A DNA stretch of 64,000 nt from NCBI GenBank assembly GCA_043228905.1, contig JBHGNT010000005.1:9362001-9426000 (forward strand), read 5' to 3'. This DNA comes from Azolla caroliniana (lineage: Eukaryota > Plantae > Polypodiophyta). The notes below the pieces were generated by a model. It worked only from the letters and a program-made list of their open reading frames with translations. It was not told the DNA's origin and made no database searches. Both the position numbers and the translations under genes were made by a program. Of the stretch, positions 1-47,833 are shown piece after piece. The number at the start of each line of letters is the position of its first letter. Position 1 is the first letter of the stretch.

Positions 1-3000
1 ACTGTAGATCATCCCTAGAGCTTCTCGTTCCGTAGTAGAGTAGTTCCGTTCTGCTTGGGATAGCTTCCGGCTGGCATAGTACACTGGCCGGTACTACTTT
101 GGTTCCGTAAGCTGCATCAGTACACTTCCGATTGCGATGTCGGAGGTGTCCACGAACACGTGAAATTCGTTACTCCAATCCGGAGGCTGCACTACCAGTG
201 CCTGCGACAATAGTACCTTGAGGGCCTTATACGCCCTATCCTCAGTGTCGGTCCACTGGAATGGTGTCCGATGTACGGCGGCATGCAACGGTGTAGCTAG
301 GTCGGCCAAGTATCAGAGCATCCAGCTGTGCCACCGGATCTGGCCTAAGAAACGGCTTAATGCCTTTGCCGTTACCGGCGCCGGTGCTTTTAATATGGCT
401 TTCACTTTGTTCGGGTCGACTGCAATACCTTCCTAGCTCACAATATGTCCTAATAAAGTTCCACTGGACACGCCAAATACACACTTTGCCGGATTCAAGC
501 TTAGCCGGTACGCTCTACACTTTTCTAGACAAAGACGGAGGTGCTGAAAATGGTCCTCCTCCCGGCTATAGACGGCGAAATCGTAAAGGAAAACTTGCAT
601 GAAAGTTGGTATATATTCACCAAAGACTTCCATGATGATTCGTTGAAATGTTGTCGGTGCCGTTTTGAGTCCGAACATCATCACCACGGCCACAAACACC
701 CCCCATTCGGTGACGAATGCCGTTTTCTCTTGGTCATCGGGGTGCATCCGGATCTGATTATACCCGTTGAATCCGTCTAGGAAGCTATAGACCTCATGGC
801 CGCCGACGGCATCAAACACTCCATCTGTGAACGGAAGTGGAAACGCATCTATTACCGTAGCCGCATTGAGTTTCCGGTAGTCTACGCAAACTCGAATTTT
901 TCCGTTCTTCTTCGGTACGACTACGATCGGGCTCAGCCATGTCGCTTTCTTTACCGGACGGATAAAGCCAACTCTTAGCAGTTTGTCGATTTCCTCCTTG
1001 ACCTTGGCGGCATAATTGGGATTCATCCGGTACCGTCTTTGTGCCACTGGTTTTGCATCCTTGCTCAAGTGCACTTGATGCTGGTATAACTGAGGGTTGA
1101 GACCTCGCATGTCTTCGTATGACCAGGCGAATACATCGCGAAATTCCGTGAGAAGTGTGATCATCGTCGTTTTGTCTCCGGACTTCATCTCCTTGGCGAT
1201 GTGCACCGGTTTTGCTTCGTCCGTGGTCCCTAAATTCACCTCTTCTAGTTGCGATGCTTTTACGCGCTGTGAAACGGCCATTTCTCGTTCCAACGCTTCT
1301 TGCGCTTGTCGTAACTCCCGGATTGCGTCTTTATCCGGTTCTGCTTCAGCCTCTTCCGGTTGCGGTAAGTATGGTGCTACTGCTTCGGCAATGTCAATTT
1401 CGAAGTGGGGTATGATCTTCGGGTTTTCCTGCAGGTACTGAGCTTCTTCTTCGTCCGCTAACCCTTCTAGCATGTTGACGCATTCGGCATATAACGGTGT
1501 ACATTCCTTGCCAGTGCTCGTCCTTGGCTGTGTTGGTACCCGTACCTTGGCTTTTCCTCGCCGGAAGGTAATTATATTTTTTCACCAATTCTGTTTGATA
1601 TGTGCCGTTTTCAACCATGGCCGCCCCAGCAATAGCGGGTATGCGCCTTGTGCCTGTAATTGTAGCACTACGGCCGAGATGTGAAATGTATGACCGTCGA
1701 CGGTGACTTCTAATTTCCGTATTAATCCTGTTGGCCGCACTAAGCTTGTATCGGCCATCCGCAACCAGAACGGACACGGCTCCCACTCGTGGATTCCTAG
1801 GTCATCACACGTCTGGAGGCTTATTACATTCACCCCAGAGCCTCCGTCTATAACTGTGTCGGGGAGTTCTTTCCCTTTTTCAATGGCAGTGATTACAGAA
1901 CTGCTGGTGTCCACCACCGTTGGTCCCTCCTCCGGATTCGAGAAGAGTACCGGTGCCGGTGATGGTTCTCCTGCCGTCATGGTCGTCTTCAGTCCTTCCG
2001 TGAATCTTGGCACGAGTTGTAGGAGTCTTCCTAGTGGTAACGTAATCTGGCATTCTTGCAACGCCTGCCATGTCTCGTTCTCGGAGTGATTACCGCCAGC
2101 AAGCCCTGCGGTGTTCTCATTTTGCCGTTGTAAGTCTGTGACATTCTGCTCGTTTGCTTTCTTTACCCATTCCGTTGCTTGTTTCCGGATGGTCTCCTGT
2201 GTCTCCCATTCTTTGGCCATGCCCTTCGACCTTGTGGTCACCTGCTGCAGATCTGCCACCTCAGGGACTACCATATTTACCGCCGGTCGTTTTTCATAGC
2301 TTTTCACCAGGCATTGGTTACTATAATGGCCTTCCTGTCGGCAATAGTAGAAGTAGGCCTTCCGGGTATTGCTAGATTCGGCATTGTCTGTTGTACCCGG
2401 GGTAGGTCCTGTGGTACGCGCGGGGTTTTGTACCGGTTGGCTGCTTGGAGCTCCTTGTTCCGGATCCCGGGGGTAGCCGCCTTTTTTAAAATGCCGTTTT
2501 TTGTTATAGCTCTTCTTATTACGGTACTCTTGACGGGGTTGCCCGTTATATCTGCCGTATTCCTCCCGTTGCTGACGATACCCGGGGGAGTGCTCCCGGT
2601 CGTAATGTTCGTATCGTCTATTGTAATCCTGGTACCGATCATGCCGGTCATAGTTATCCCGCCGATCACTGTACCGGACATCATTTTCCCGTCGATCGCC
2701 ATACCGAACATCATTTTCCCGTCGCTCGCCATACCGGACCCCGCCGGTCGGTCACAGTCCATTCGCCGCCAACGTTCGTCTTCTTCATCCCGGCTACTGC
2801 GTGGCTCAATTTGTCGGACGGGCGGTGCTTGCCGATTCAACAGATTATACTCGCACCTATCTGTCGTATGGCTCTTGGATTGACAGATTACACATTGCGT
2901 CCTCATAGTGCATTCTAGAGCCGAGTGTCCGGAATTCAAGCAGGTTGTGCACTGTATTGCTTGCCGAAACCGGAGGTCTTCATCGGACGGTAACGCCTGT

Positions 3001-26162: not shown

Positions 26163-29100
26163 TCAAAACATGGGAAGCCAACCATGTCTCCCAAAGACTG
26201 ACGGAGCCCGAAGCCGAACGATCCAAAGTCACCGAATTCGGCATGACCTTAGAAGGACCGGCGGCCCGATGGCACGCAAAGCACTTACCGGGCAACTTTG
26301 CCACATTCGATGCCTTGAAGGCCAAATTCCTCAGGCTTTTTCACAGACAAGTTGAGCAAAGGGAATTGGTCGGGCAGTTCTACACCACCCGACAGGAAGA
26401 GAACGAGACTGTGCCACAATTCATCATTCGGTTTCAAACCCTGCACAGCCAACTGACGAGAGCACCACCCGAAGACGAAGCCAAAGCAGTCTTTTTGGCC
26501 GCGCTAAAAGAGCCACTTCGAACGATGTGCGGAGTCCTTGATTTCCGCACCAGCACAATGGACCAAGTTATTGATCGGGTCTTAGAAATGGACAAGACTA
26601 GCTCCTTCTTGTCGATGGGGATGTTACACCGGGCACTCCCGAAGGAGGAAGACCTGAGGTTCCGACAAGCCTTACAATGCACAACATGCCTAAATTCGGG
26701 CCACTCAACGGTAGACTGCAACCTGCGGACACAATGTATGATCTGCAACTCTCGAGCCCATACAACGGACCGATGCGAATATAACCTGTTAAATCGGCAG
26801 GCGGCACCGGTTCGACACATAGAACCGCGCAATCAGGACCCGGATGATGATCGATTCCGGAGAGACGACCGCTACCAACGCGAACGCGGTAACAGGTACG
26901 CTGATAGAAGACGCGATAACTATGACCGAGAGGAGAAACGCAAAGATAGCTACCCCCGGGACCGGTACGACCGAGACAAATCCCCGGAATACGAACGACG
27001 CAGAGAAGAGAGGCGACAAGGGAACCGAAATTTCCGACGGAATCAGAAGCGTGGATTTTTTCGAAGAGAGGAACGTCGGGAGGCAGCAAGGAATGACAAC
27101 CCGGTATCGGTGTCGGATAACCGAAAAACCGAAGACGACCGCCGAAGTATACCCACCCCCCAAACCGGGGACAAAGGAGAAACGAGCAACAGTCACAAGG
27201 TGTACTGTTATTACTGCCGTAAGGAGGGCCATTATAGTAACCAATGCCCAAGCAAAACCAATGACAAGCAGCCGACAGTCAACATGGTTACAACCGAAAT
27301 AACGGAAGTGCAGCAGGTCACAACCCGGTCAAAGGGGAAGACCGCCGAGTGGGAAGCCCAGGAGGCAATCAGAAAACAAGCGGCGCAATGGATCAAGGAG
27401 GCCAATGAACAGAATGCGGCAGAAGTAAGAGACCAAAATATGCCAAAAGACGAAGAAATCATACAGCCAGGAGAAAACCCGACGTGGCAAGCGCTCCAGG
27501 ACTGTCAAATCGTGCTGCCGTTAGCACGGCTACTACAGTTGGTGCCACGGTTTACGACAGACTTACAGGCATCCGTGAGCAAACCGAAGCCAACGCCAGC
27601 ATCGACATTCTTCTCCAACCCGGAGGAAGGACCAGCTATGGTCGATACAAGTAGCCCGGCGATCACGGCAATCGTGAAAGGAAAGGAAATTGCCGGAACA
27701 ATTATTGACGGAGGCTCCGGGGTAAATGTCATCAGTCGACGGACATGCGACAACCTGAGCATTCGGGAATGGGAACCATGCCCCTTCTAGTTACGCATGG
27801 CGGATACCAGCTCAGTCCGATCGACCGGGCTTATCCGGGATTTGGAAGTAACGATCGGAGGCCATGTATTCCGGATATCGGCCGTGGTGCTGCAGCTGAA
27901 TGTACAAGGCACGTACCCCCTACTCCTAGGACGACCATGGCTGCGAACGGCGCATATCAAGCAGAACTGGCAAAAGAACATGATCACATTCCGGCGAGGG
28001 AAAACAAAGGTACGAGTAGCGACGCAACCACGGGTGATCGCCAGTAAGGAAGCAACTCCATTGTATGCGGAAAGCATCAACATGTTGGAGGGATTACCGG
28101 ACGAGGAAGTCGATCGATACCTCGAGGAACACCCACGAATCGTCCCACTATTTGAGGTGGATATCACGGCGGCAGTAGAACCGTACATCACGACGCCGGA
28201 CGAACCGGACCAAGCGGCGATCCGGGAACTGCGACAAGCGCAGGAATCCCTAGAGAGGGAGATGACGATATCCCAGAGGGTAAAAGCATCCCAGACGATA
28301 TCAATCTCCTCCGGGTCGGATTTATCCGACCGGTCAAGCAGGCAACCTGGCTGAGTCCGATAGTGGTGGTCCCGAAAAAGAACGGCAAAATCCGGGTATG
28401 CGTGGACTACCGGAAACTAAATGCCGCAACGGTGACCGATGCGTTTCCACTACCATTTACGGACGGGGTGTTAGATGCGGTAGCCGGCCACGAAGTTTAT
28501 AGCTTCCTGGATGGATTTAGCAGTTACAACCAAATACGAATGAACCCGGCCGACCAGGAGAAGACAGCGTTCGTTACGGAATGGGGAGTGTTCGTCGCGG
28601 TCGTGATGATGTTCGGACTAAAGACAGCCCCAACGACCTTTCAAAGGATAATAATGGAAATTTTCGGGGAATATATCCCCGGTTTTATGCAGGTCTTCCT
28701 TGACGATTTCGCGGTCTACAGCCGGCACGGAGAGCATCTCGATCACCTCCGGCTGTTCCTAGAGAAGTGCCACGAGTACCGGTTGAGTCTAAACCTGGCC
28801 AAGTGCGTCTTTGGAGTGGCAAGCGGCAACTTACTAGGGCACGTGGTGAGTAAGGAAGGAATCGCGGTAGATCCGGATAAAGTAAAGGCGATTCTCGAGG
28901 CACCGGCACCAAATAACGCAAAGGCTTTAAGCCGGTTCCTGGGCCAAATAAGGTGGCATAGCCAGATGATACGGCACCTCGCAAACTTCGCTACACCATT
29001 GCATGCCGCCGTACACAGGGTACCCTTCCTATGGGCGGAGACGGAGGAGAAAGCCTACCAAGCGTTGAAGGTTATGCTGTCGCAAGCTCCGGTGGTGCAA

Positions 29101-31044
29101 CCGCCGGATTGGAGTAAAAGCTTTCACGTCTTTGTCGACGCGTCAGACGTAGCAATCGGCAGCGTTCTGATGCAACTCACGGAGCCGAAATGGTACCGGC
29201 CGGTGTACTACGCAAGCCGGAAACTCTCAAAAGCCGAACGGAACTACTCTACGACGGAACGTGAGGCATTAGGAATGGTGTATAGTATCACAAAGTACAG
29301 GCACTATCTGCTCGGAAGGAAGTTTTCCTTCCATGTCGACCATTCGGCACTACTCTACCTGGTCTCGAAGGCATCCCTGACGGGAAAAATTGCACGATGG
29401 ACACTGCTGTTACATGAATTTGAATTCGACATTTTCCACCGACCCGGGGCGCAGCATGCGGTAGCGGACCACCTAAGCATACTCGAATCCGGAGAAGCAG
29501 GGGACGACGTACAGGATGAGTTCCCCAACGCCGAGTTGTTCTGGATCACGACAGAACCGGCAACGGATGCAACGGTAGCCGATGAAGACAAGTGGCTAAC
29601 CGAGATGCATCAGTTCCTGAGCACCGGAGTACCCCCGGAGAACATGGACCGCGATGAAAGGAAAAGGGTAGCAGTAAGAAGCAGACATTTCTGCTTGGTT
29701 GGAGACACCCTCTATCACAAGGGGGCAGATGGCATCTGGAGACGAGCAGTGCGGAGCGATGAGAAGGATCTAATCCTCAGGGAAGCCCACTGTGGAATTG
29801 CCGGCGGACATTATGCCGGCGACGCAACCGCTCGGAAAATATGGCAGAGCGGACCGTGGTGGCCCACCACCCTAAAAGATGCCGTGAAGTATAGCAGAGA
29901 ATGCGATTTGTGTCAACGACTGGGCCAACCCACGGAGCAGGCCCGGATGCCACACCACCCGGTCTTGCCATTGGAACCGTTTCAAAAGTGGGGTTTGGAC
30001 TTTGTCGGTCCCTTCAAGCCACTGGCAATGCGAACCGGAAATCGGTATGTCATAGTGGCGACTGACTATTGCACCAAATGGGTGGAAGCGAAGGCCTTAC
30101 GGGACAACACAGCCGCGTCCACGGCAAAGTTCCTGTACGAGTGCATATGGTGCCGGTATGGATGCCCGATCGAGCTTATAAGTGACCAAGGAGGACACTT
30201 TCTCGGGCAGGTAGTAGAAAGCCTGACGTCATTTTACGCGGTGGTACATAAAAGGAGTACTCCCTACTACCCCCAAGCCAATGGACTAGCGGAATCGACG
30301 AACAAAACTCTGCAGAACATCCTACGAAAAATCATCAACGAGAACCGGACCGACTGGGATACGAAATTGCAGAGCGCGTTATGGGCGTACCGAACAACGT
30401 ACAAAACCAACATCCGGACAACCCCGTTCCGACTAGCATTCGGCCTAGAAGCGGTCATGCCGGTAGAGTTCAAGATCCCCAGCTTACGGATCCAGGTAAA
30501 GGAGCGCTTAAGTGAGAAGGAGCCCGAACGAATCCGGATGGCGACGTTGTTGGAATTAGAAGAAAACCGAATAGCCAGCTTACTACAACTCGAACTGGAG
30601 CAAAGGAGGAGAAAAGCTTTAGTGGACCGACACCGGCGTGGCAACGAAAAGGAGTTCGAAGTCGGAAAACCGGTGCTACTGTTCCAGACACGGATGGGGA
30701 ACATGCCGGGAAAGTTGCGGTTTCGGTGGACCGGACCGTTTTGGATCACCAAGGAGTACAATGGGTCGTATAAGCTCGGCACGTTGTCTGGAGAAGTCAT
30801 CGGTAAGTGGGCAAATGGGTTTCGGCTAAAGCCGTATAAGGGAAATATGCCAGCCAACCCGTTCAAGCAAGACCCGGAAATCTGGCACGATGAGGAACCG
30901 ACACCGACAGACGCTGCTGCAGAAATCTGGACCAAGGAAGAACCGACACCGATACCGACAAAGACTATCCCGGAAAACCGACAGAAGGAGATTCCGGTAT
31001 CAGCGCGAACCGACCCGAACAAATCGGGCGGGACCGGGAAATGA
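26163..31044 (+). pseudogene. gag-pol of element E (TGG>TAG stop at 27788; internal deletion at ~28295)
   Basis: CYYCRKEGHYSNQC knuckle; IDGGSGVN; FLDDF; VDASD; HCGIAGGH...CDLCQ; WGLDFVGP; YYPQANGLAE. Confidence 0.9.
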
Positions 31045-41056: not shown

Positions 41057-42421
41057 ATGACACAGGTACTACTGCATCCTGCCTTCCCTTTCGCTGCTCT
41101 CTATTTGCATTTGTTTTCTTTCTCCGCGTTAAAAGATTGAGCAGCAGCTATGGTTCTTCAAACATGTTTCTTTCTCTTTCCTTCTCGCTTTCATTTAACT
41201 CTTCAATTACTCAATTCGCTCAGTTTACCTCTGTCCCTCCTCGTCGCCTCGTGCTTTTTTGTTCTTCCATTTCTCTGCGTTCTGTAATGGTTCAGTTCCC
41301 CACTCTATTTGTGTCTTTTCTTTGCAGACCATAACTCTCAAGGTCTCCATCGACTGTGATGCGTGCAAACGAAAAGTGAAGAAAGCACTCGAGGGAATAC
41401 CAGGTTTGTGTTTACATCTACTGTTCCTCTCATCATCATCATCATCATTGCTTCTTCTGTCAGACCTCTCTCTCTCTCTCTGTGTCTATTCGCTTCATAC
41501 AAGCTTCCATTTTTTCTCTGCTCATTTACAAGTAAATTCGTTTCTGCTGCGGCAAAGTAAAATGGAAGTTAGGAACAAAAGCCAGATGGATACGCCTTTA
41601 GCTGTTTGTTCTGTCGTCGAGTATCAGAAATGTTTGAGTTGCTTGAAATTTGTAAAAGTTCTCATTTGTGTAATCTCTGTAATGTAAGGCGCATTATCTT
41701 ACCTTCGAGGATCTTTCTGTTCTTATGAAGAATATGAGCGTCGTTATGCAGCCTGAGAAGAAAAGGTTTAGTCTTTTAGCGATTCCATTCACTTGTACTC
41801 ACTAAAGAGGATGCGTTGCTTTGTATGGTCTCCATAATCATAGCAAAACCTGATATTCCGATAACAAAATGGATGCTAAATGCGATGGAAACATGGAAAA
41901 TACCTAATAAATTCTCAAGTGGAAGATAGGAAACTGAGTTAGACATGTAAATGTGCAAATGGATTGTGATGCGACACAATAACGTCTTGATCCAATGCGA
42001 TATGAGTGCAGGTGTGGAGACGATCGATATAGACATGAAGAACGAGAGAGTAGTAGTGGTGGGATCAGTGGACCCAAAAATGATAGTGAAGAAGCTTGCG
42101 AAGGTGGGGAAGAAGGTGGAGATGGCAGGAAAAGGAGCAGGGAGAGGAGGAGACCATGGGTATCAGAGTGCCAACGATCACAGCCACGACATGGCCCCTA
42201 ATCATTTCGGGCTGAAAGGGAAAGGAGGGAAGAACAGTACAAGCAAGGGCAATGGTAATAATGGTAATGGCAATGGCGGGAGAGGGAAGCTCGGTGGGGG
42301 GGGATCTGCAGGGACCATCAGTGGCGAAAGTGACGACGATGGTGGACATGAGATTCTGCAGGGAGAGCATTATGCGCACTTCTTCAGCGACGAGAACGCC
42401 AATTCCTGCAGGCTCATGTAA
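41057..42421 (+). CDS. Heavy-metal-associated isoprenylated plant protein (HIPP), 3 coding exons
   Basis: Exons 41057-41065 (MTQ), 41328-41403 (LKVSIDCDACKRKVKKAL, HMA CxxC) and 42012-42421 (Gly/Asn-rich; FSDENANSCRLM* with CaaX). Confidence 0.92.
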
Positions 42422-43275
42422 TGTAGATACCCCCGATATATAAAGATCGAAGCATAATATTCCAAACAAAGATCTATCTTCTGCAGCACTACATAATGAA
42501 ATCATATAGACTCAAGAGTAGCTTAGACTTACATCTATCTATCTATCAATCTCTCTCTCTCTCTCTATATATATATATACACAAATTCCAGACAATCCAG
42601 CGGCCTTAAATTTTGTTGGTTACGTACACGTAAGGCTTCATGTCAATCTTTTGAGCAAGTCCTTTTCTTCTTCTAAGGTCTCTCTCTAGAGTGCCTTTCC
42701 ATGTTGTAGTAGTAGTAGTAGTAGCTATACAATGTTTCGTGTAGAAATATTTCGTCTTGCTGTTTAAATGTGTATCTCATACACATCTCTTTTTGTCCAT
42801 GAGAGAGAGAGAGAGAGAAACGTGCCAGTTCCCTGATTGTCATTACCCCCCCCTTTTGCTTCTTGCATGCATGTGTGATATTCTTGTGACTATACCCAAA
42901 ACATCCTAAATAGCACAGCATAACTTCCTTGGATCCATCAGACTCCTCCCAATGACTTCCATGCGTTTGCGTGTGCCAAAAACCTGTTCATTCATATAAT
43001 ATAGAGGATTGCCCATCATTGAATCTTTAGGAACATGATGATGTTGGCAAAAACGTGTTCAATAATATAATTTAAAGGGTTACCTATCATCGAAATCTTT
43101 GGGAACACGATGACTTTGTCGTAAGTGCTGGAACACGATGATGACTTTGTTGTAGGTGCTGCCAATGCCTATCGTTCATCTGGCATGCATGGCACAAAAC
43201 AAGTTCGATAATAGAACTCTAAAGGAACGACCTTCTTTGAACCTTCATGAGATGAGATTGTTTATGTTTGGATGG

Positions 43276-43482
43276 TGGTGGTGTGCCAGTGTGCCTCGAT
43301 GACAATGCAGGACTGAGACGATGTATGTAACTCCCAAGGCCACAAGCTGCCTTGAGTGGGAGCTGGCCCATGAGACAAATTAGGTTAATATCGTGTGACC
43401 CTATGGGCCACGTATCATCAGATGTTAAATTGCTAAGAATAGACACTACACTTGATCTTAGCCGAAAGGCCTAGAAAGGTAC
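43276..43482 (-). ncRNA. U2: U2 snRNA-like gene (divergent variant or pseudogene)
   Basis: - strand reads GTACCTTTCTAGGCCTTTCGGCTAAGATCAAGTGTAGTGTCTATTCTT versus plant U2 ATACCTTTCTCGGCCTTTTGGCTAAGATCAAGTGTAGTATCTGTTCTT. Stems I, IIb (GTGGCCC/GGGTCAC), III and IV can form; CACGATATTAAC conserved. 3' end approximate. Confidence 0.88.
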
Positions 43483-43507
43483 AAGTCTTCTTAGGCTCGT
43501 GGGTTGG

Positions 43508-43548
43508 TATTTGAAGGCTGCACCCCAACATGCCTTCGTATGTGGGAT
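43508..43548 (-). promoter_or_regulatory. snRNA promoter: USE (ATCCCACATAC, -66 to -56) and TATA-like TTCAAATA (-33 to -26)
   Basis: 9/11 match to the plant USE consensus RTCCCACATCG; 22-bp spacer to the TATA-like box. Confidence 0.7.
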
Positions 43549-44020
43549 ACTCTCTGTGTGTGTACATGAGATAAAAATGTGATGGTTCCATTACACCACC
43601 GTCACTTGTTTTGCTTTTGGTCTTTGTACTCTTTTTACGTCTACATGCACTATAATGGTAGCTTTGTGTCTACTCCAATCAATATCTGAAGAGTACAAAA
43701 ATGGTTGGTTTGATCCTTCAAAGTGGCGAACGCATCTAACCCATTCCGGCAGCAACTATTTATACTGTATGGCACGATCGAGCTTTAATAACATATTTTT
43801 GAGGGTGTATCTCACAATCTTCATGTCAAAGCAACTCCATCCAATTTGTCACAATAACTATTGTTCATTCTTGTACGACATTCAGAAGGAGTTTAATAAC
43901 ATATGATTTAGAGTGTTCTCCTTTGAATCGTCAAAGAGGTCATTCATGTTGTGCAAGAGTGGAGTACGTGTACTACCCGTCAATAACAACACAAGATGGA
44001 GGCGACGCATCCACCTCTCA

Positions 44021-44093
44021 ATGGCTACATTTTAGGTATTAAATTGGAAAGAAGAATATGCTACACTTGATCTTGGGCAAAAGGTGGAGAAAG
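44021..44093 (-). pseudogene. U2: Second, decayed U2 snRNA fragment (about +5 to +75)
   Basis: CTTTCTCCACCTTTTGCCCAAGATCAAGTGTAGCATATT...TTTAATACCTAAAATGTAGCC aligns with the U2 5' domain; cut by the Copia LTR at 44094. Confidence 0.75.
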
Positions 44094-45962
44094 TGTCAAG
44101 CGGGCAAGCTCAACCAGATTCGGATCGGATGTATAAGCAAGAGCCGGATTAGGTATTTGGAATGGAGAATCGGATAGGTATTTGGATATATCGGTATCCG
44201 GAACCTAGAGCCGGACTGGAGAACCATATCGTACTCTAGAATAGTGAGAACCGATATGTCGTTGGAGCCTATGGTCCAAGCCAAGTACGTAGGCATATTC
44301 CTTGGAGTTAGTGTCAGTCGTTCGTATGAGCATTGAAGTATATGTCAGTACTTCTGTCAGTCCTTTTAAGGACTTGTATAAAAAGTGTTCTGATTGAGTT
44401 TACTGTTTCTCTCTCTCTCCGCGTGTATTCATCTTTCCATTGAACCTTTATTCTGTGTTATGTTGTTATCCGAACTAACTGGTTTTGTCTTAGCTTCCGC
44501 ACATTATCTTTACATGGTAGCTAAGTGAGAGGGTTGAGAACCTCTGCAGCCGACGAGTGATTTTCGGAGACATGCCCTAACACCCGGTAGAGAACAAAAA
44601 ACAAAGGTTAGAATGGACAGAGGAATGGATAGCTCGCTCCCGACGGAGAAGCTAAAACAGATCCAACTATGCATCTTGGTCGTACAAGATGCACTAGTAC
44701 CTGCTCGAACATGGTTACTAGAGTTATGTCGACGGAGCTAACGATATGGCACCTTATATGGCACACAGGGACTTCCCGGCTTGGGAACAAGCGGTAAGTA
44801 GGGTAATGTACTGCTTCGCGTCTATTGTCGGTGACCAGCTGCTTAGACATATCCGAGATGCCAAGACGCCAAAAGAAAATTGGGGAAACTTGGAAAAGGT
44901 CTTCACAACAAGCACCACAACCTGGAAGTTGCAACTCTGACAGGAGTTGAGCAATGTCCGATAGAAGGACATGTCGATGGTCGACTACACGACCCGGATC
45001 AAAGACATCAACGATTCACTTGCCTCCATCAACGTGACCGTCGAGGAAGATGAGATGGTGCAGGTTTGTTTGGGGGCCTGGCGTCGAAGTTCGGAGCATT
45101 CTGGATAGCGGTTTGTAAAAGGGAGAATACGCCCTCGTTTTTCGACTTACAGTCGATGTTCCGAGTAGAGGAGAACCACGCGGGTGCGTCAACAAGCACA
45201 CACACCGACAATAAGATGTTGTACATAGAGGTGGATCGACCCAATGCTCGTGGTGGACGAGGTAGATCGGCATGCAGTGGAAGTGGCCGAAAAGAACCGA
45301 ACCAAAGGCACAAGGATGTTGCCAACAATAGTTTCGGACCCTCCAGAAGCAGGGGGAGTCAAAGCGGCGCCGGAAACCGACAAGAGAAGACCGCAACAGA
45401 AATGGATCGAGCCCAACCTTTGTGATGAAACACAAGACTAACTCGATGAAGACAAACACCTCGAAACCGAACGAGGTATGGTACGTTGATTCCGGAGTGT
45501 GAAACCATATGACAAGCCACGATGAGTGGTTTTCTTATCTAGAAAAACCAGAACAACCGGGGGTGGCCAAAACCGGAGACGACACCCCGCATACCATTGA
45601 ACACATCGGTGATGTTCCCCTCAACCATGTCAGGCAGAAGGGAAAGCTTATGAATGTCCTGCATATCCCGACAATCACGAAGAATTTGGTGTCTGTTGGA
45701 CAGATTGTTGACCAAGGGATGCAGGTCCGATTCACACATCTCGAGTGCTTCATTGAAGAAGAAGGCAAAGTCATTGCGCAAGGGTGCCGAGACGGGAGGA
45801 TGTTTATCTTGGAGACGAACGATGTTGGCACCACTATGTTCGCGAAAGGGCAGAAGGTCAAGTCGGAAATCGACTTATGGCATAAGCGGGTCAACCACAT
45901 CAATTTCTGGAAGCTTCAAGATATGCAGTCGAAACATGTTGTTTCTAGATTGCCAAAGTTCA
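44094..45962 (+). mobile_element. Ty1/Copia 5' half: LTR 44094-44514, decayed PBS, gag, protease, GAG-pre-integrase
   Basis: TGTCAAG...TTTACA then TGGTAG; HIRDAKTPKENWGNL; WYVDSG; LHIPTITKNLVSVGQIVD; DLWHKRVNH. Confidence 0.88.
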
Positions 45963-47833
45963 GGCCTTCTTCCTCAATGAAGCACCCGAGGTGCGTGAAC
46001 CGCACTTGCATCCCCTGGTCGACGATCTATCTAATCGACACCAGGTTCTTCGTAATTGTCGGAACATTTAAAACGTTCATCAACATTCCCTTATGTCCGA
46101 TATGACTTAAAGGGACTTCTCCGACATGCACTATCGGGTGAGGAGTGTCATCTCCGGTTTCGACAACTCCTAGTTGCTCCGGCTTTTCTAGAAACGAGAA
46201 CCATTCTTCGTGGTTCGCCACGTGGTTAGATGCTCTGGAGTCAACGTACCACACTTCCTCCAATCTGGAAGTGGTCTGCTTCATCGAGCTCGCCATGTGC
46301 TTCATCACTTCCGGTCTTTCTGGTTTCAGATCCTTTTGATCCTTTGACGTAATGCAAACATTGACGATTCCCTTGTCCGTCTATGCCAGATCCGGATTTA
46401 TCCGAATCTGTGCGCTTCTTCCAGTACTCACTCTCCTAGTGGCCTTTCTTGTCACAATACCGGCATTCCGTGTTGGCCTTCCTCTTGCCGGTTCCCGACG
46501 CCGCCTTGACTCCCCCTGCTTGTGGAGGGTCCGGAACTGCTGTCGGCACCATCTCTATGCCTCCGATTTTGTTCTTGTCGGCCACTACTATTGTGTGCCG
46601 ACCCACCTCGTCCTCCACATCCATGGGGCCGATCCTTCTTCGTGTACAACATCTGACTGTTTGATTGAGTGGTCCTTGACCCACTCGTGTGATTTTCTTC
46701 GACCATGAACATTGACTGCAGGTAGAAAAAGGACGATGGCTTCTCTCAAGTGCAAATTGCCGTCTGGATTGGTCAGTATCGTTGTGCTAGACCACCGAAG
46801 CAGATCTAGACCATCTCGTCTTCGTCCACCGTCACGTTGATGGACTTGAGCGCGTCACAAATCTCCTTGACCTTGGTGGTGTAGTTGGTGACCGACGTGT
46901 CCCGTTGCCGGATATTGTTGAGCTCTTGCTGGAGCTACAACTTCCAAGCCGTGGTACTTGCGGCGAAAATCTTCCAGAGATTTTCCCAGGCCTCCTTCAG
47001 TGACTTTGCGTCTCTGATGTAGCCAAGCATCTGGTCATGCACAGAGGATGCGAAACAATACAACACTTTGCTTGCTCCTTGCTCCCATACGGGGAAATCG
47101 TTGTGTGCCAAATCCGGTGCTGCTTCATTTGCTCCTTCCACGTAGCTCTAGTATCCGTGTCCCAACAAGTACTGGTGCATTTTATACGATTAGGACGCAT
47201 GGTTGCTCCGGTCAAGTTTTTCCGTAGGAAGCGAGCTCGCCATGCTTCTATCCATATCTTCCTTTTGTTCTTTACCGGTGATTAGGGTTTGTCCCTTTCG
47301 AGCAGTTGTCGGCAGCAGAGGTTCTCAACCCTCGCGCTCTGGTACCATGTAAAAGTTAATATGCGGAAGCTTAGATAAACCGGCTTAGCCGGATAACAAC
47401 AATAAAACAGAAATGAAGGTTTAATGGAAGCTTGGGAATACGCAGTACACGAGAGAGACAGAGAGAGCAGAATAGCATAAACTCAATTCAAAATAACAAC
47501 ACTTTGTACATACAAATGTCCTACATAACACTTTTTATACAGGTCCTTAAAGGGACTGACAGAAGTACTGACAAGTACTTCAATGTTCATACAAGCGACT
47601 GACACTAACTCCAAGGAATATGCCTACGTACTTGGCTTGGACCATAGGCTCCAACGACATATCGGTTCTCACTATTCTAGAGTACAATATGGTTCTCCAG
47701 TCCGGCTCTAGGTTCCGGATACCGATATATCCGAACATCAATGACGGTACCTATCCGGTTCTTCGTTCCGGATACCAATCCGGCTCTTGCTTATTCAACC
47801 GATCCGGATCCGGTTGAGCTTGCCCACTAAACA
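45963..47833 (-). mobile_element. Ty1/Copia 5' half of the same family in opposite orientation: LTR 47348-47833, PBS, gag, protease
   Basis: PBS TGGTACCAGAGC at 47347-47336; CRYCDKKGH knuckle; WYVDSRASNH; LTR nearly identical to 44094-44514 over part of its length. Confidence 0.88.

What the first reader, a model, noticed from the sequence alone, without database searches (positions are those of the whole stretch)
43196..43550. U2 snRNA-like gene with a U6/Pol III-type promoter, broken oligo-U runs and an altered branch-point sequence
Seen: a ~205-nt U2-like sequence on the - strand with USE ATCCCACATAC starting at -66 and TTCAAATA at -33 (22-bp spacer). +1 is G instead of A. Loop I UUUU reads UUUC and the Sm site reads AAUUUGUC, so the RNA has no run of 4 U. 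The branch-point recognition sequence GUAGUA reads GUAGUG. Stems I, IIb, III and IV still pair, while stem IIa and loop IV are altered. Known: in angiosperms USE-TATA spacing sets polymerase choice, roughly 32-36 bp for Pol II (U1, U2, U4, U5) and roughly one helical turn shorter for Pol III (U6, U3), and Pol III stops at T-runs. Inference: this may be a U2 paralog switched to Pol III and freed of internal terminators, acting as a variant or non-spliceosomal RNA. The first T4 downstream is at 43199-43196, which would give a ~285-nt transcript. Simple pseudogene decay plus a promoter deletion remains a real alternative.
Basis: partly seen in the sequence, partly recalled or inferred. Interest (0 to 1): 0.8.

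Follow-up and report, generated by a model that had tools for sequence, protein, structure and literature searches.

The report
Decaying U2 copy, U6-spaced promoter
A damaged copy of the U2 splicing-RNA gene in a plant (likely a fern) sits behind a promoter spaced like those that RNA polymerase III reads, but its changes break parts that U2 needs and are not compensated, so it is most likely a dead gene copy rather than a new kind of RNA.

Summary
In detail: a U2-like gene at 43482-43279 (-; Rfam 82 bits, against 165-177 for intact plant copies), USE at -66, TATA-like box at -33, spacer 22 bp. All 14 distinct angiosperm-type U2 promoters fetched have a 33-bp spacer, so the USE is one helical turn closer: Pol III geometry. 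The RNA looks unselected. Eight substitutions and a 3-nt insertion in positions 1-67 break stems IIa and IIc without compensation, as random change would (3 broken pairs, neutral mean 2.3); half of lower stem IV is unpaired; U2 contigs of three organisms laid here have intact stem IIa. Loss of both U-runs has a neutral chance of 0.04-0.13, and the first T4 lies at the background median distance, so there is no dedicated terminator. A second, more decayed U2 remnant lies 614 bp upstream. Best reading (0.7): a paralog that lost about 11 bp of promoter and is decaying. The exact Pol III spacing stays a low-chance coincidence, and native fern U2 promoters, orthologs and expression could not be examined, so a Pol III-driven U2 variant or subfamily is not excluded (about 0.12).

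The parts
43538..43548 (-). Upstream sequence element (USE) of a plant snRNA promoter, starting at -66
   Evidence: core matches RTCCCACATCG in 10 of 11 letters (consensus passage); core occurs twice in the window
43508..43515 (-). TATA-like box at -33, 22 bp after the USE
   Evidence: best TATA-like site between USE and +1, 2 mismatches of 7 to TTTATAT and to TACATAT, 3 to TATAAAA
43279..43482 (-). Degenerate U2 snRNA gene copy, 204 nt
   Evidence: Rfam RF00004 82.1 bits; 9 differences in positions 1-68 plus a 3-nt insertion against comparison consensus, where 14 comparison genes differ by 0.57 on average, at most 2
43413..43435 (-). Stem IIa / loop IIa, broken: U50>G, G53>A, U59>C, 3-nt insertion
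   Evidence: 4 of 6 pairs; -0.3 against -5.4 kcal/mol; intact in U2 contigs of runs X3, X10, X11 (table 7)
43374..43381 (-). Sm-site region AAUUUGUC, without a U4 run
   Evidence: relatives' U2 types differ here from one another
43196..43199 (-). First T4 downstream, 80 nt after the U2 3' end; no sign that it is a selected terminator
   Evidence: background median distance to first T4 is 78 nt; first T5 at offset 226, no T6 within 879 nt
43934..44096 (-). Second, more decayed U2 remnant, 614 bp upstream, 5' end cut by a retroelement end
   Evidence: Rfam U2 23.5 bits, E 0.33; 93 of 128 identical to the comparison consensus, score 93.5 against shuffle maximum 46.5
44094..47833 (.). Degenerate palindrome of two Copia-type retroelement halves abutting the remnant (context)
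   Evidence: inverted arms 44099-45386 / 47828-46482, 73% (I2-I7); Pfam Pol_BBD and gag_pre-integrase at 45503-46102
42012..42421 (+). Last exon of a convergent heavy-metal-associated (HIPP-like) gene, about 860 bp downstream (context)
   Evidence: weak HMA hit in the upstream exon, E 0.001, below cut-off; HIPP label recalled from the C-terminal CaaX-like end

Best explanation
This is a DNA-level duplicate of a U2 snRNA gene, complete with its promoter, that has likely lost about 11 bp between USE and TATA and is likely decaying without selection. Shown: U2 identity, USE and TATA positions, uncompensated breaks in stems IIa, IIc and IV, absent 3' box, a second decayed U2 copy beside it. Inferred: the short spacer would hand the copy from Pol II to Pol III (or silence it); a Pol III transcript of the then intact gene would have stopped at the U4 of loop I and lacked Pol II capping and 3'-box cleavage, so the deletion may itself be what killed the copy; later random substitutions (about 12%) broke the U-runs along with the stems. 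Any present transcript would be a 3'-extended, misfolded RNA of about 287 nt that would not enter a U2 snRNP.
For: Rfam score 82 against 164.7-177 for intact copies and 78.9 for a 5'-truncated copy. Three of 21 pairs in stems I, IIa, IIc broken, none compensated; neutral simulation with 8 substitutions gives mean 2.3, P(<=3)=0.83. G53>A is, by position number, the stem IIa-destabilising yeast mutation (PMC4712673 passage; equivalence of numbering inferred). U2-family contigs laid from organisms B, C, D show intact loop/stem IIa and no insertion (loose ends of 4, 3 and 2 contigs), so this damage is copy-specific. Both G>A changes lie in CHG context, and A1>G and G53>A recur in ordinary comparison copies L011 and L014. 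P(no T4 left) under neutral change 0.04-0.13. First T4 at offset 80, background median 78. 3' box present in 13 of 14 comparison genes, absent here (best hits 1 mismatch at offsets 36 and 61). No fold z-score beyond -1.3. A second decayed U2 lies 614 bp upstream and run X3 holds two further low-depth divergent U2 pieces (records 8 and 11).
Against: The spacer is shorter by exactly one helical turn, with the TATA-like box at the same -33 as in comparison genes; a rough model gives 0.004-0.047 for a 9-12 bp deletion in the spacer (assumed rates), and 0.0002-0.006 jointly with U-run loss per decayed copy. The USE core is intact. Stems I and IIb pair fully (7 of 7 each) and stem III still folds (-16.7 kcal/mol). 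The TATA-like box is closer to U6-type than to U2-type TATA (2 against 3 mismatches). The comparison promoters are angiosperm-type and probably from one plant lineage, not from this lineage; the ancestral spacer is assumed, not seen.
Confidence: 0.7

Rival explanations
1. A selected Pol III-transcribed U2-derived RNA: an 11-bp promoter contraction switched polymerase, U-runs were removed by selection, and the RNA (stems I, IIb, III, a 3' tail to the T4) acts outside the spliceosome, for example as a decoy for U2 proteins or an antisense guide through its single-stranded 5' part.
For: Exact Pol III spacing with intact USE and pyrimidine/purine start; both T4+ runs gone; 3' box gone, as a Pol III gene would allow; joint chance per decayed copy only 0.0002-0.006. 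Plant U3 snoRNA is a Pol III transcript with such a promoter (PMC8287931 and PMC9845283 passages).
Against: No compensatory change among the visible pairs; breakage matches neutral expectation; no T-run directly after the gene, unlike a selected Pol III gene; the 3' extension folds no better than shuffles (z -0.17); loop IV and lower stem IV altered.
Confidence: 0.1
2. The 22-bp spacer is inherited: U2 genes of this lineage, or one subfamily of them, natively have the short spacer (Pol III-driven, or a different Pol II geometry), and this locus is a decayed member.
For: The native spacer was never seen. In run X10 the deepest U2 contig (record 3, depth 980) aligns through 43371-43376, which a second type (record 5) does not; position-only reasoning gives at most 1 (penalty 2) or 2 (penalty 1) differences from the window in those six letters, and 3 of the 4 patterns allowed at penalty 2 keep the G that interrupts the U-run. 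Fern U6 promoter motifs differ from Arabidopsis (bioRxiv 10.1101/2025.01.12.632625 passage).
Against: PMC8287931 states the USE-TATA distance rule for vascular plants generally. The other U2 type in X10 and a type in X11 differ from the window at 43376, most simply by keeping a longer U-run (the base itself is not shown). The inference on record 3 rests on an unknown scoring scheme.
Confidence: 0.1
3. Chimeric dead locus: the U2 body was joined by recombination or gene conversion to the promoter of a U6-, U3-, 7SL- or MRP-type gene, which explains the exact Pol III spacing without a deletion.
For: Spacing and TATA-like box both resemble U6-type promoters; the region is rearranged, with a retroelement end cutting the neighbouring remnant at its 5' end.
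Against: No donor promoter is available for comparison; the junction would have to fall exactly at +1; no U6-type gene or remnant was found in the window.
Confidence: 0.1

Closest known systems
U2 spliceosomal snRNA genes of land plants (Rfam RF00004; Arabidopsis U2 family, PMC545797 passages)
   Same: Full-length homology, USE plus TATA promoter, stems I and IIb, multi-copy family with damaged members (Arabidopsis list includes copies lacking the USE or 20 nt of the 3' end).
   Different: Spacer 22 instead of 33 bp, no 3' box, stems IIa, IIc and lower IV broken, Sm site and loop IV changed, half the Rfam score.
Plant type-3 Pol III promoters of U6 and U3 (PMC8287931, PMC9845283 passages)
   Same: [quoted passage not shown]
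   Different: Spacer 22 against the 23-24 quoted for Arabidopsis; degenerate TATA; no T-run at the end of the RNA; drives a U2 body.
U3 snoRNA polymerase switch (Pol III in plants, Pol II in animals; plant Pol III status passage, the switch experiments of the Filipowicz group recalled, not read)
   Same: Precedent that a Pol II-type small RNA gene can move to Pol III by a spacing change.
   Different: U3 is conserved in structure and lineage-wide; this copy shows no sign of selection.
DNA-mediated snRNA pseudogenes that keep their flanks (family recalled; Arabidopsis examples in PMC545797)
   Same: Promoter retained, body decaying, next to another relic.
   Different: The promoter lesion happens to give a valid Pol III geometry.

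Membership tests
U2 snRNA family (sequence homology) | Rfam RF00004 above gathering score, full model length | tested here: met
   82.1 bits against 46, model 1-192
Functional spliceosomal U2 gene | Intact stem IIa and IIa/IIc switch | tested here: not met
   IIa 4 of 6 pairs, IIc 7 of 8, 3-nt insertion; -0.3 kcal/mol
Functional spliceosomal U2 gene | Invariant branch-point-pairing hexamer | tested here: not met
   A39>G; position invariant in 14 of 14 comparison genes. The change alone could be tolerated as a G-U or G-C pair (inference).
Functional spliceosomal U2 gene | Canonical Sm site | tested here: inconclusive
   AAUUUGUC departs from the U-run consensus, but a major U2 type in run X10 lies within 1-2 letters of it; Sm binding not testable
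Functional spliceosomal U2 gene | Stem-loop IV | tested here: not met
   4 of 12 pairs non-standard; four loop-region positions invariant in comparison genes are changed
Plant Pol II snRNA gene | USE-TATA spacer 32-34 bp | tested here: not met
   22 bp; 14 of 14 distinct comparison promoters 33 bp
Plant Pol II snRNA gene | 3' box CA(N)3-10AGTNNAA just after the RNA | tested here: not met
   13 of 14 comparison genes have it within 22 nt; none here (consensus)
Plant type-3 Pol III gene | USE one helical turn closer to TATA | tested here: met
   11 bp shorter than comparison U2 promoters; USE at -66
Plant type-3 Pol III gene | No internal T4+ run | tested here: met
   neutral chance 0.04-0.13
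Plant type-3 Pol III gene | T-run terminator at the RNA 3' end | tested here: not met
   first T4 80 nt downstream, at the background median; T5 at 226
Plant type-3 Pol III gene | Transcription by Pol III in vivo | not testable with these tools
   no raw-read RNA run was offered
snRNA pseudogene | Neutral divergence, no conserved ortholog, no stable RNA | tested here: inconclusive
   neutral-like pair breakage met; orthologs and RNA not visible

The most novel reading that the evidence does not exclude
Ferns of this lineage run a U2 gene, or a whole U2 subfamily, on RNA polymerase III: an 11-bp promoter contraction switched polymerase, internal U-runs were replaced (the Sm site by an interrupted form that a major U2 type of a related organism may share), and this locus is a diverged member making a 287-nt non-spliceosomal U2-derived RNA. 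It would be a natural Pol II to Pol III switch of a Sm-class spliceosomal RNA gene in a land plant.
Probability: 0.12. Interest if true: 0.8.

Novelty: new member of a known kind. Interest (0 to 1): 0.25.

Why it matters
If dead, it is an ordinary relic with one neat feature: a natural example of the promoter-spacing change that is known to swap polymerases, possibly the lesion that killed the copy. If the novel reading held, it would show that a Sm-class spliceosomal RNA gene can move to Pol III in a land plant and would make the question of how snRNA genes change polymerase in evolution (as U3 did) directly testable in one genome.

Tried and rejected
No whole genome is held, so the decisive genome-wide comparison of snRNA promoters was not possible. 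Sequencing-run search: 9 of 14 listed runs hold the stretch or part of it, all DNA, from organisms A and B; no RNA holder listed, which is no evidence on expression; runs X10 and X11 (organisms C, D) hold next to none of the words, no proof of absence. Laying contigs on 43050-43440 (4 of the 14 runs): no piece covered 43050-43342, not even in X3, which holds 0.71 of the words, so holes say nothing about orthologs; RNA-labelled run X12 gave 0 pieces, which can be false; no base differences were listed. The promoter and U2 positions 1-42 were not covered by any laid data. Pattern scan of metagenome contigs gave 35 loci, all angiosperm-type U2, none from this lineage; 24 of 35 show a USE (14 distinct promoters), 6 have none (two distinct copies: one 5'-truncated, one full-length), 5 are cut by contig ends. 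A 21-nt motif found nothing in viral or prokaryote contigs. Supplements of PMC8287931 and PMC11638000, which may hold fern or bryophyte snRNA promoter sequences, could not be read; PMC10226579 is not held. Tandem-duplication test of remnant against variant: downstream flanks do not align beyond shuffles (55.0 against maximum 68.5); a whole-unit gapped alignment scored above shuffles (113.5 against 84.5) but out of register, and blastn found only the U2 5' parts alike, so a recent 614-bp tandem unit is not supported; the two copies share only G53>A and a differently changed position 43 and 50. Branch-interacting stem-loop: neither this copy nor the comparison copy folds on its own, so no test. 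Retroposed origin rejected: the USE is retained. SINE-like family rejected for lack of other copies in the window. The neighbouring protein search gave two unnamed relatives only.

Full report
Setting. No whole genome is held for the window. The window is plant DNA rich in retroelements. The organism is likely a fern: for a Serinc exon the best named hit that covers the whole query is from Adiantum nelumboides (81% identity; second by E-value of 364 hits, the first being a partial-coverage Ipomoea hit), and earlier unchecked notes on this genome say the same. The feature lies on the minus strand about 860 bp beyond the stop codon of a convergent heavy-metal-associated gene.

Observation. Rfam finds one hit at gathering level in the whole window: U2 at 43482-43279, 82.1 bits, full model length. 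Stem IV is weaker than stated: 4 of 12 pairs are non-standard. A permissive scan shows a second U2 remnant at 44096-43934 (23.5 bits; 93 of 128 identical to the comparison consensus, far above 200 shuffles), whose first bases are cut by the end of an inverted pair of Copia-type elements.

Promoter. A stem IIb pattern fetched 35 U2 loci from metagenome contigs. Their taxon was not determined; the USE is the Arabidopsis consensus and they probably come from one flowering-plant lineage, so they are a reference, not independent samples. 24 of 35 show a USE, making 14 distinct promoters; all 14 have 33 bp between USE and TATAAA, and 13 have the USE at -77 and TATAAA at -33 (the 14th, L013, has a 12-nt deletion in the gene body that shifts the count). 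The window copy has its TATA-like box at the same -33 and the USE 11 bp closer. Published spacers are 32-34 bp for Pol II and 23-24 bp for Pol III in Arabidopsis, and the rule is stated for vascular plants (PMC8287931, passages; PMC9845283, passages). Ceratopteris U6 promoters have USE AAACCCACATGTG and TATA TACATAT (bioRxiv 10.1101/2025.01.12.632625, passages); the window's box differs from that at 2 of 7 letters and from TATAAAA at 3. So the geometry is Pol III-type. Whether native U2 genes of this lineage have the long spacer was not seen; it is inferred from the published rule.

RNA. Against the consensus of 14 distinct full-length comparison genes (21 of the 35 loci were left out as duplicates, truncated or deleted), the copy has 9 differences and a 3-nt insertion in positions 1-68, where comparison genes differ by 0.57 on average and 2 at most. 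Stems I and IIb pair 7 of 7; stem IIa pairs 4 of 6 and IIc 7 of 8, with no compensating change; stem IIa folds at -0.3 against -5.4 kcal/mol. Eight random substitutions in positions 1-67 break 2.3 of these 21 pairs on average; 3 were seen (P(<=3) 0.83). Stem IIa promotes prespliceosome formation and G53A is a known destabilising mutation in yeast (PMC4712673, passages; numbering equivalence inferred). Both G>A changes are in CHG context, and A1>G and G53>A recur in comparison copies L011 and L014. Neither the whole RNA nor its 3' parts fold better than shuffles (z -0.17 to -1.29). Differences in stems III and IV against the comparison set (19 of 38, 23 of 48) mix lineage divergence with decay and cannot be split.

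Evidence from the lineage. Nine of 14 listed runs hold the stretch, all DNA. Laying four runs on 43050-43440 at 80% likeness brought only short U2-family contigs on 43343-43417: 7 in X3 (organism B), 5 in X10 (C), 2 in X11 (D), 0 in X12. Most have high depth (38-980), as a multi-copy family would, though depth is no copy number. Their loose ends at 43417 (4, 3 and 2 contigs) read the canonical loop and stem IIa without the insertion, so G53>A, U59>C and the insertion (and U50>G in X3 and X11) are not lineage traits. One X10 loose end shows the two loop-closing pairs of stem III intact, where the window copy has two changed bases. X3 also holds two low-depth divergent pieces (records 8, 11), so divergent U2 copies are not rare. 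At the Sm site the data cut the other way: one X10 type and one X11 type stop aligning at 43377, but the deepest X10 contig aligns on to 43371. Position-only reasoning allows mismatch penalties of 1 or 2 and then at most 2 or 1 differences from the window in those six letters; at penalty 2, 3 of 4 patterns keep the G that interrupts the U-run. Part of the odd Sm site may thus be inherited from a major U2 type. This weakens the idea that this copy was freed of terminators, and keeps open a subfamily reading. It rests on an unknown scoring scheme. U2 positions 1-42 and the promoter were not covered by any laid data.

Terminators. Neutral change at 8-15% per site removes every T4 with probability 0.04-0.13. 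The first T4 lies 80 nt after the gene; from 2973 start points in the window's flanking DNA the median distance is 78 nt and 51% are within 80; T5 comes at 226 and there is no T6 in 879 nt. The Pol II 3' box (PMC545797 and PMC5079582, passages) is present in 13 of 14 comparison genes and absent here; this fits decay and a Pol III switch alike.

Weighing. Against it: a multi-copy family offers many copies, the scan reads very many windows, a spacer lesion is itself a way to kill a U2 gene and so should be enriched among dead copies (inference), and nothing in the RNA or its 3' end shows selection. I put decay after a promoter deletion at 0.7, a selected Pol III variant at 0.1, an inherited short spacer at 0.1, a chimeric promoter at 0.1.

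Literature. Searches (listings and abstract starts only, unless cited above) showed no report of a Pol III-driven U2 gene in a land plant; the library lacks most subscription papers, including the original spacing experiments (recalled, not read). Supplements of PMC8287931 and PMC11638000 could not be read and may hold fern or bryophyte snRNA promoters that bear on the native spacer. PMC11638000 (passages) and PMC10226582 (whole text) show only that USE-TATA promoters exist in ferns and can be co-opted for other RNAs. The scan's earlier notes hold no look-alike stretch.

Verdict. A real U2 copy with a real Pol III-spaced promoter; most likely a decaying paralog. Interest 0.25; one Infernal run on the assembly would settle the main open point.

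Noticed in passing
window 43381-43373 (-): The altered Sm site AAUUUGUCU equals the first 9 of 11 letters of the animal U7 snRNA Sm site AAUUUGUCUAG (PMC12360213 passages). Land plants are not known to have U7 (recalled), so probably coincidence.
   Followed up: partly
window 44096-43934 (-): Second, more decayed U2 remnant; a retroelement end sits 2-4 nt into its 5' end, right at the transcription start.
   Followed up: yes
window 44094-47833: A 3.7-kb degenerate palindrome of two Copia-type element halves facing each other (73-94% complementary arms, no shared 5-bp target duplication by eye), looking like a long-TIR element.
   Followed up: partly
window 42974-43041 and 43045-43113: A 69-nt direct repeat (81% identical) in the downstream flank.
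   Followed up: no
run X10, records 3 and 5 (window 43371-43417): Two abundant U2 types in organism C differ in the Sm-site tail; the deeper one is within 1-2 letters of the window's unusual site.
   Followed up: partly
L007, L008, L029; L013; L004, L010, L028: Among angiosperm-type loci: a full-length U2 (166 bits) with no USE in 110 nt upstream, a copy with a 12-nt deletion over the branch-pairing region (may be an assembly artefact), and a 5'-truncated copy.
   Followed up: no
window 1-985 and 28302-29286: Two related Gypsy-type elements in opposite orientation (985 nt, 75% complementary), one with a 962-aa open pol frame at 28156-31044.
   Followed up: no
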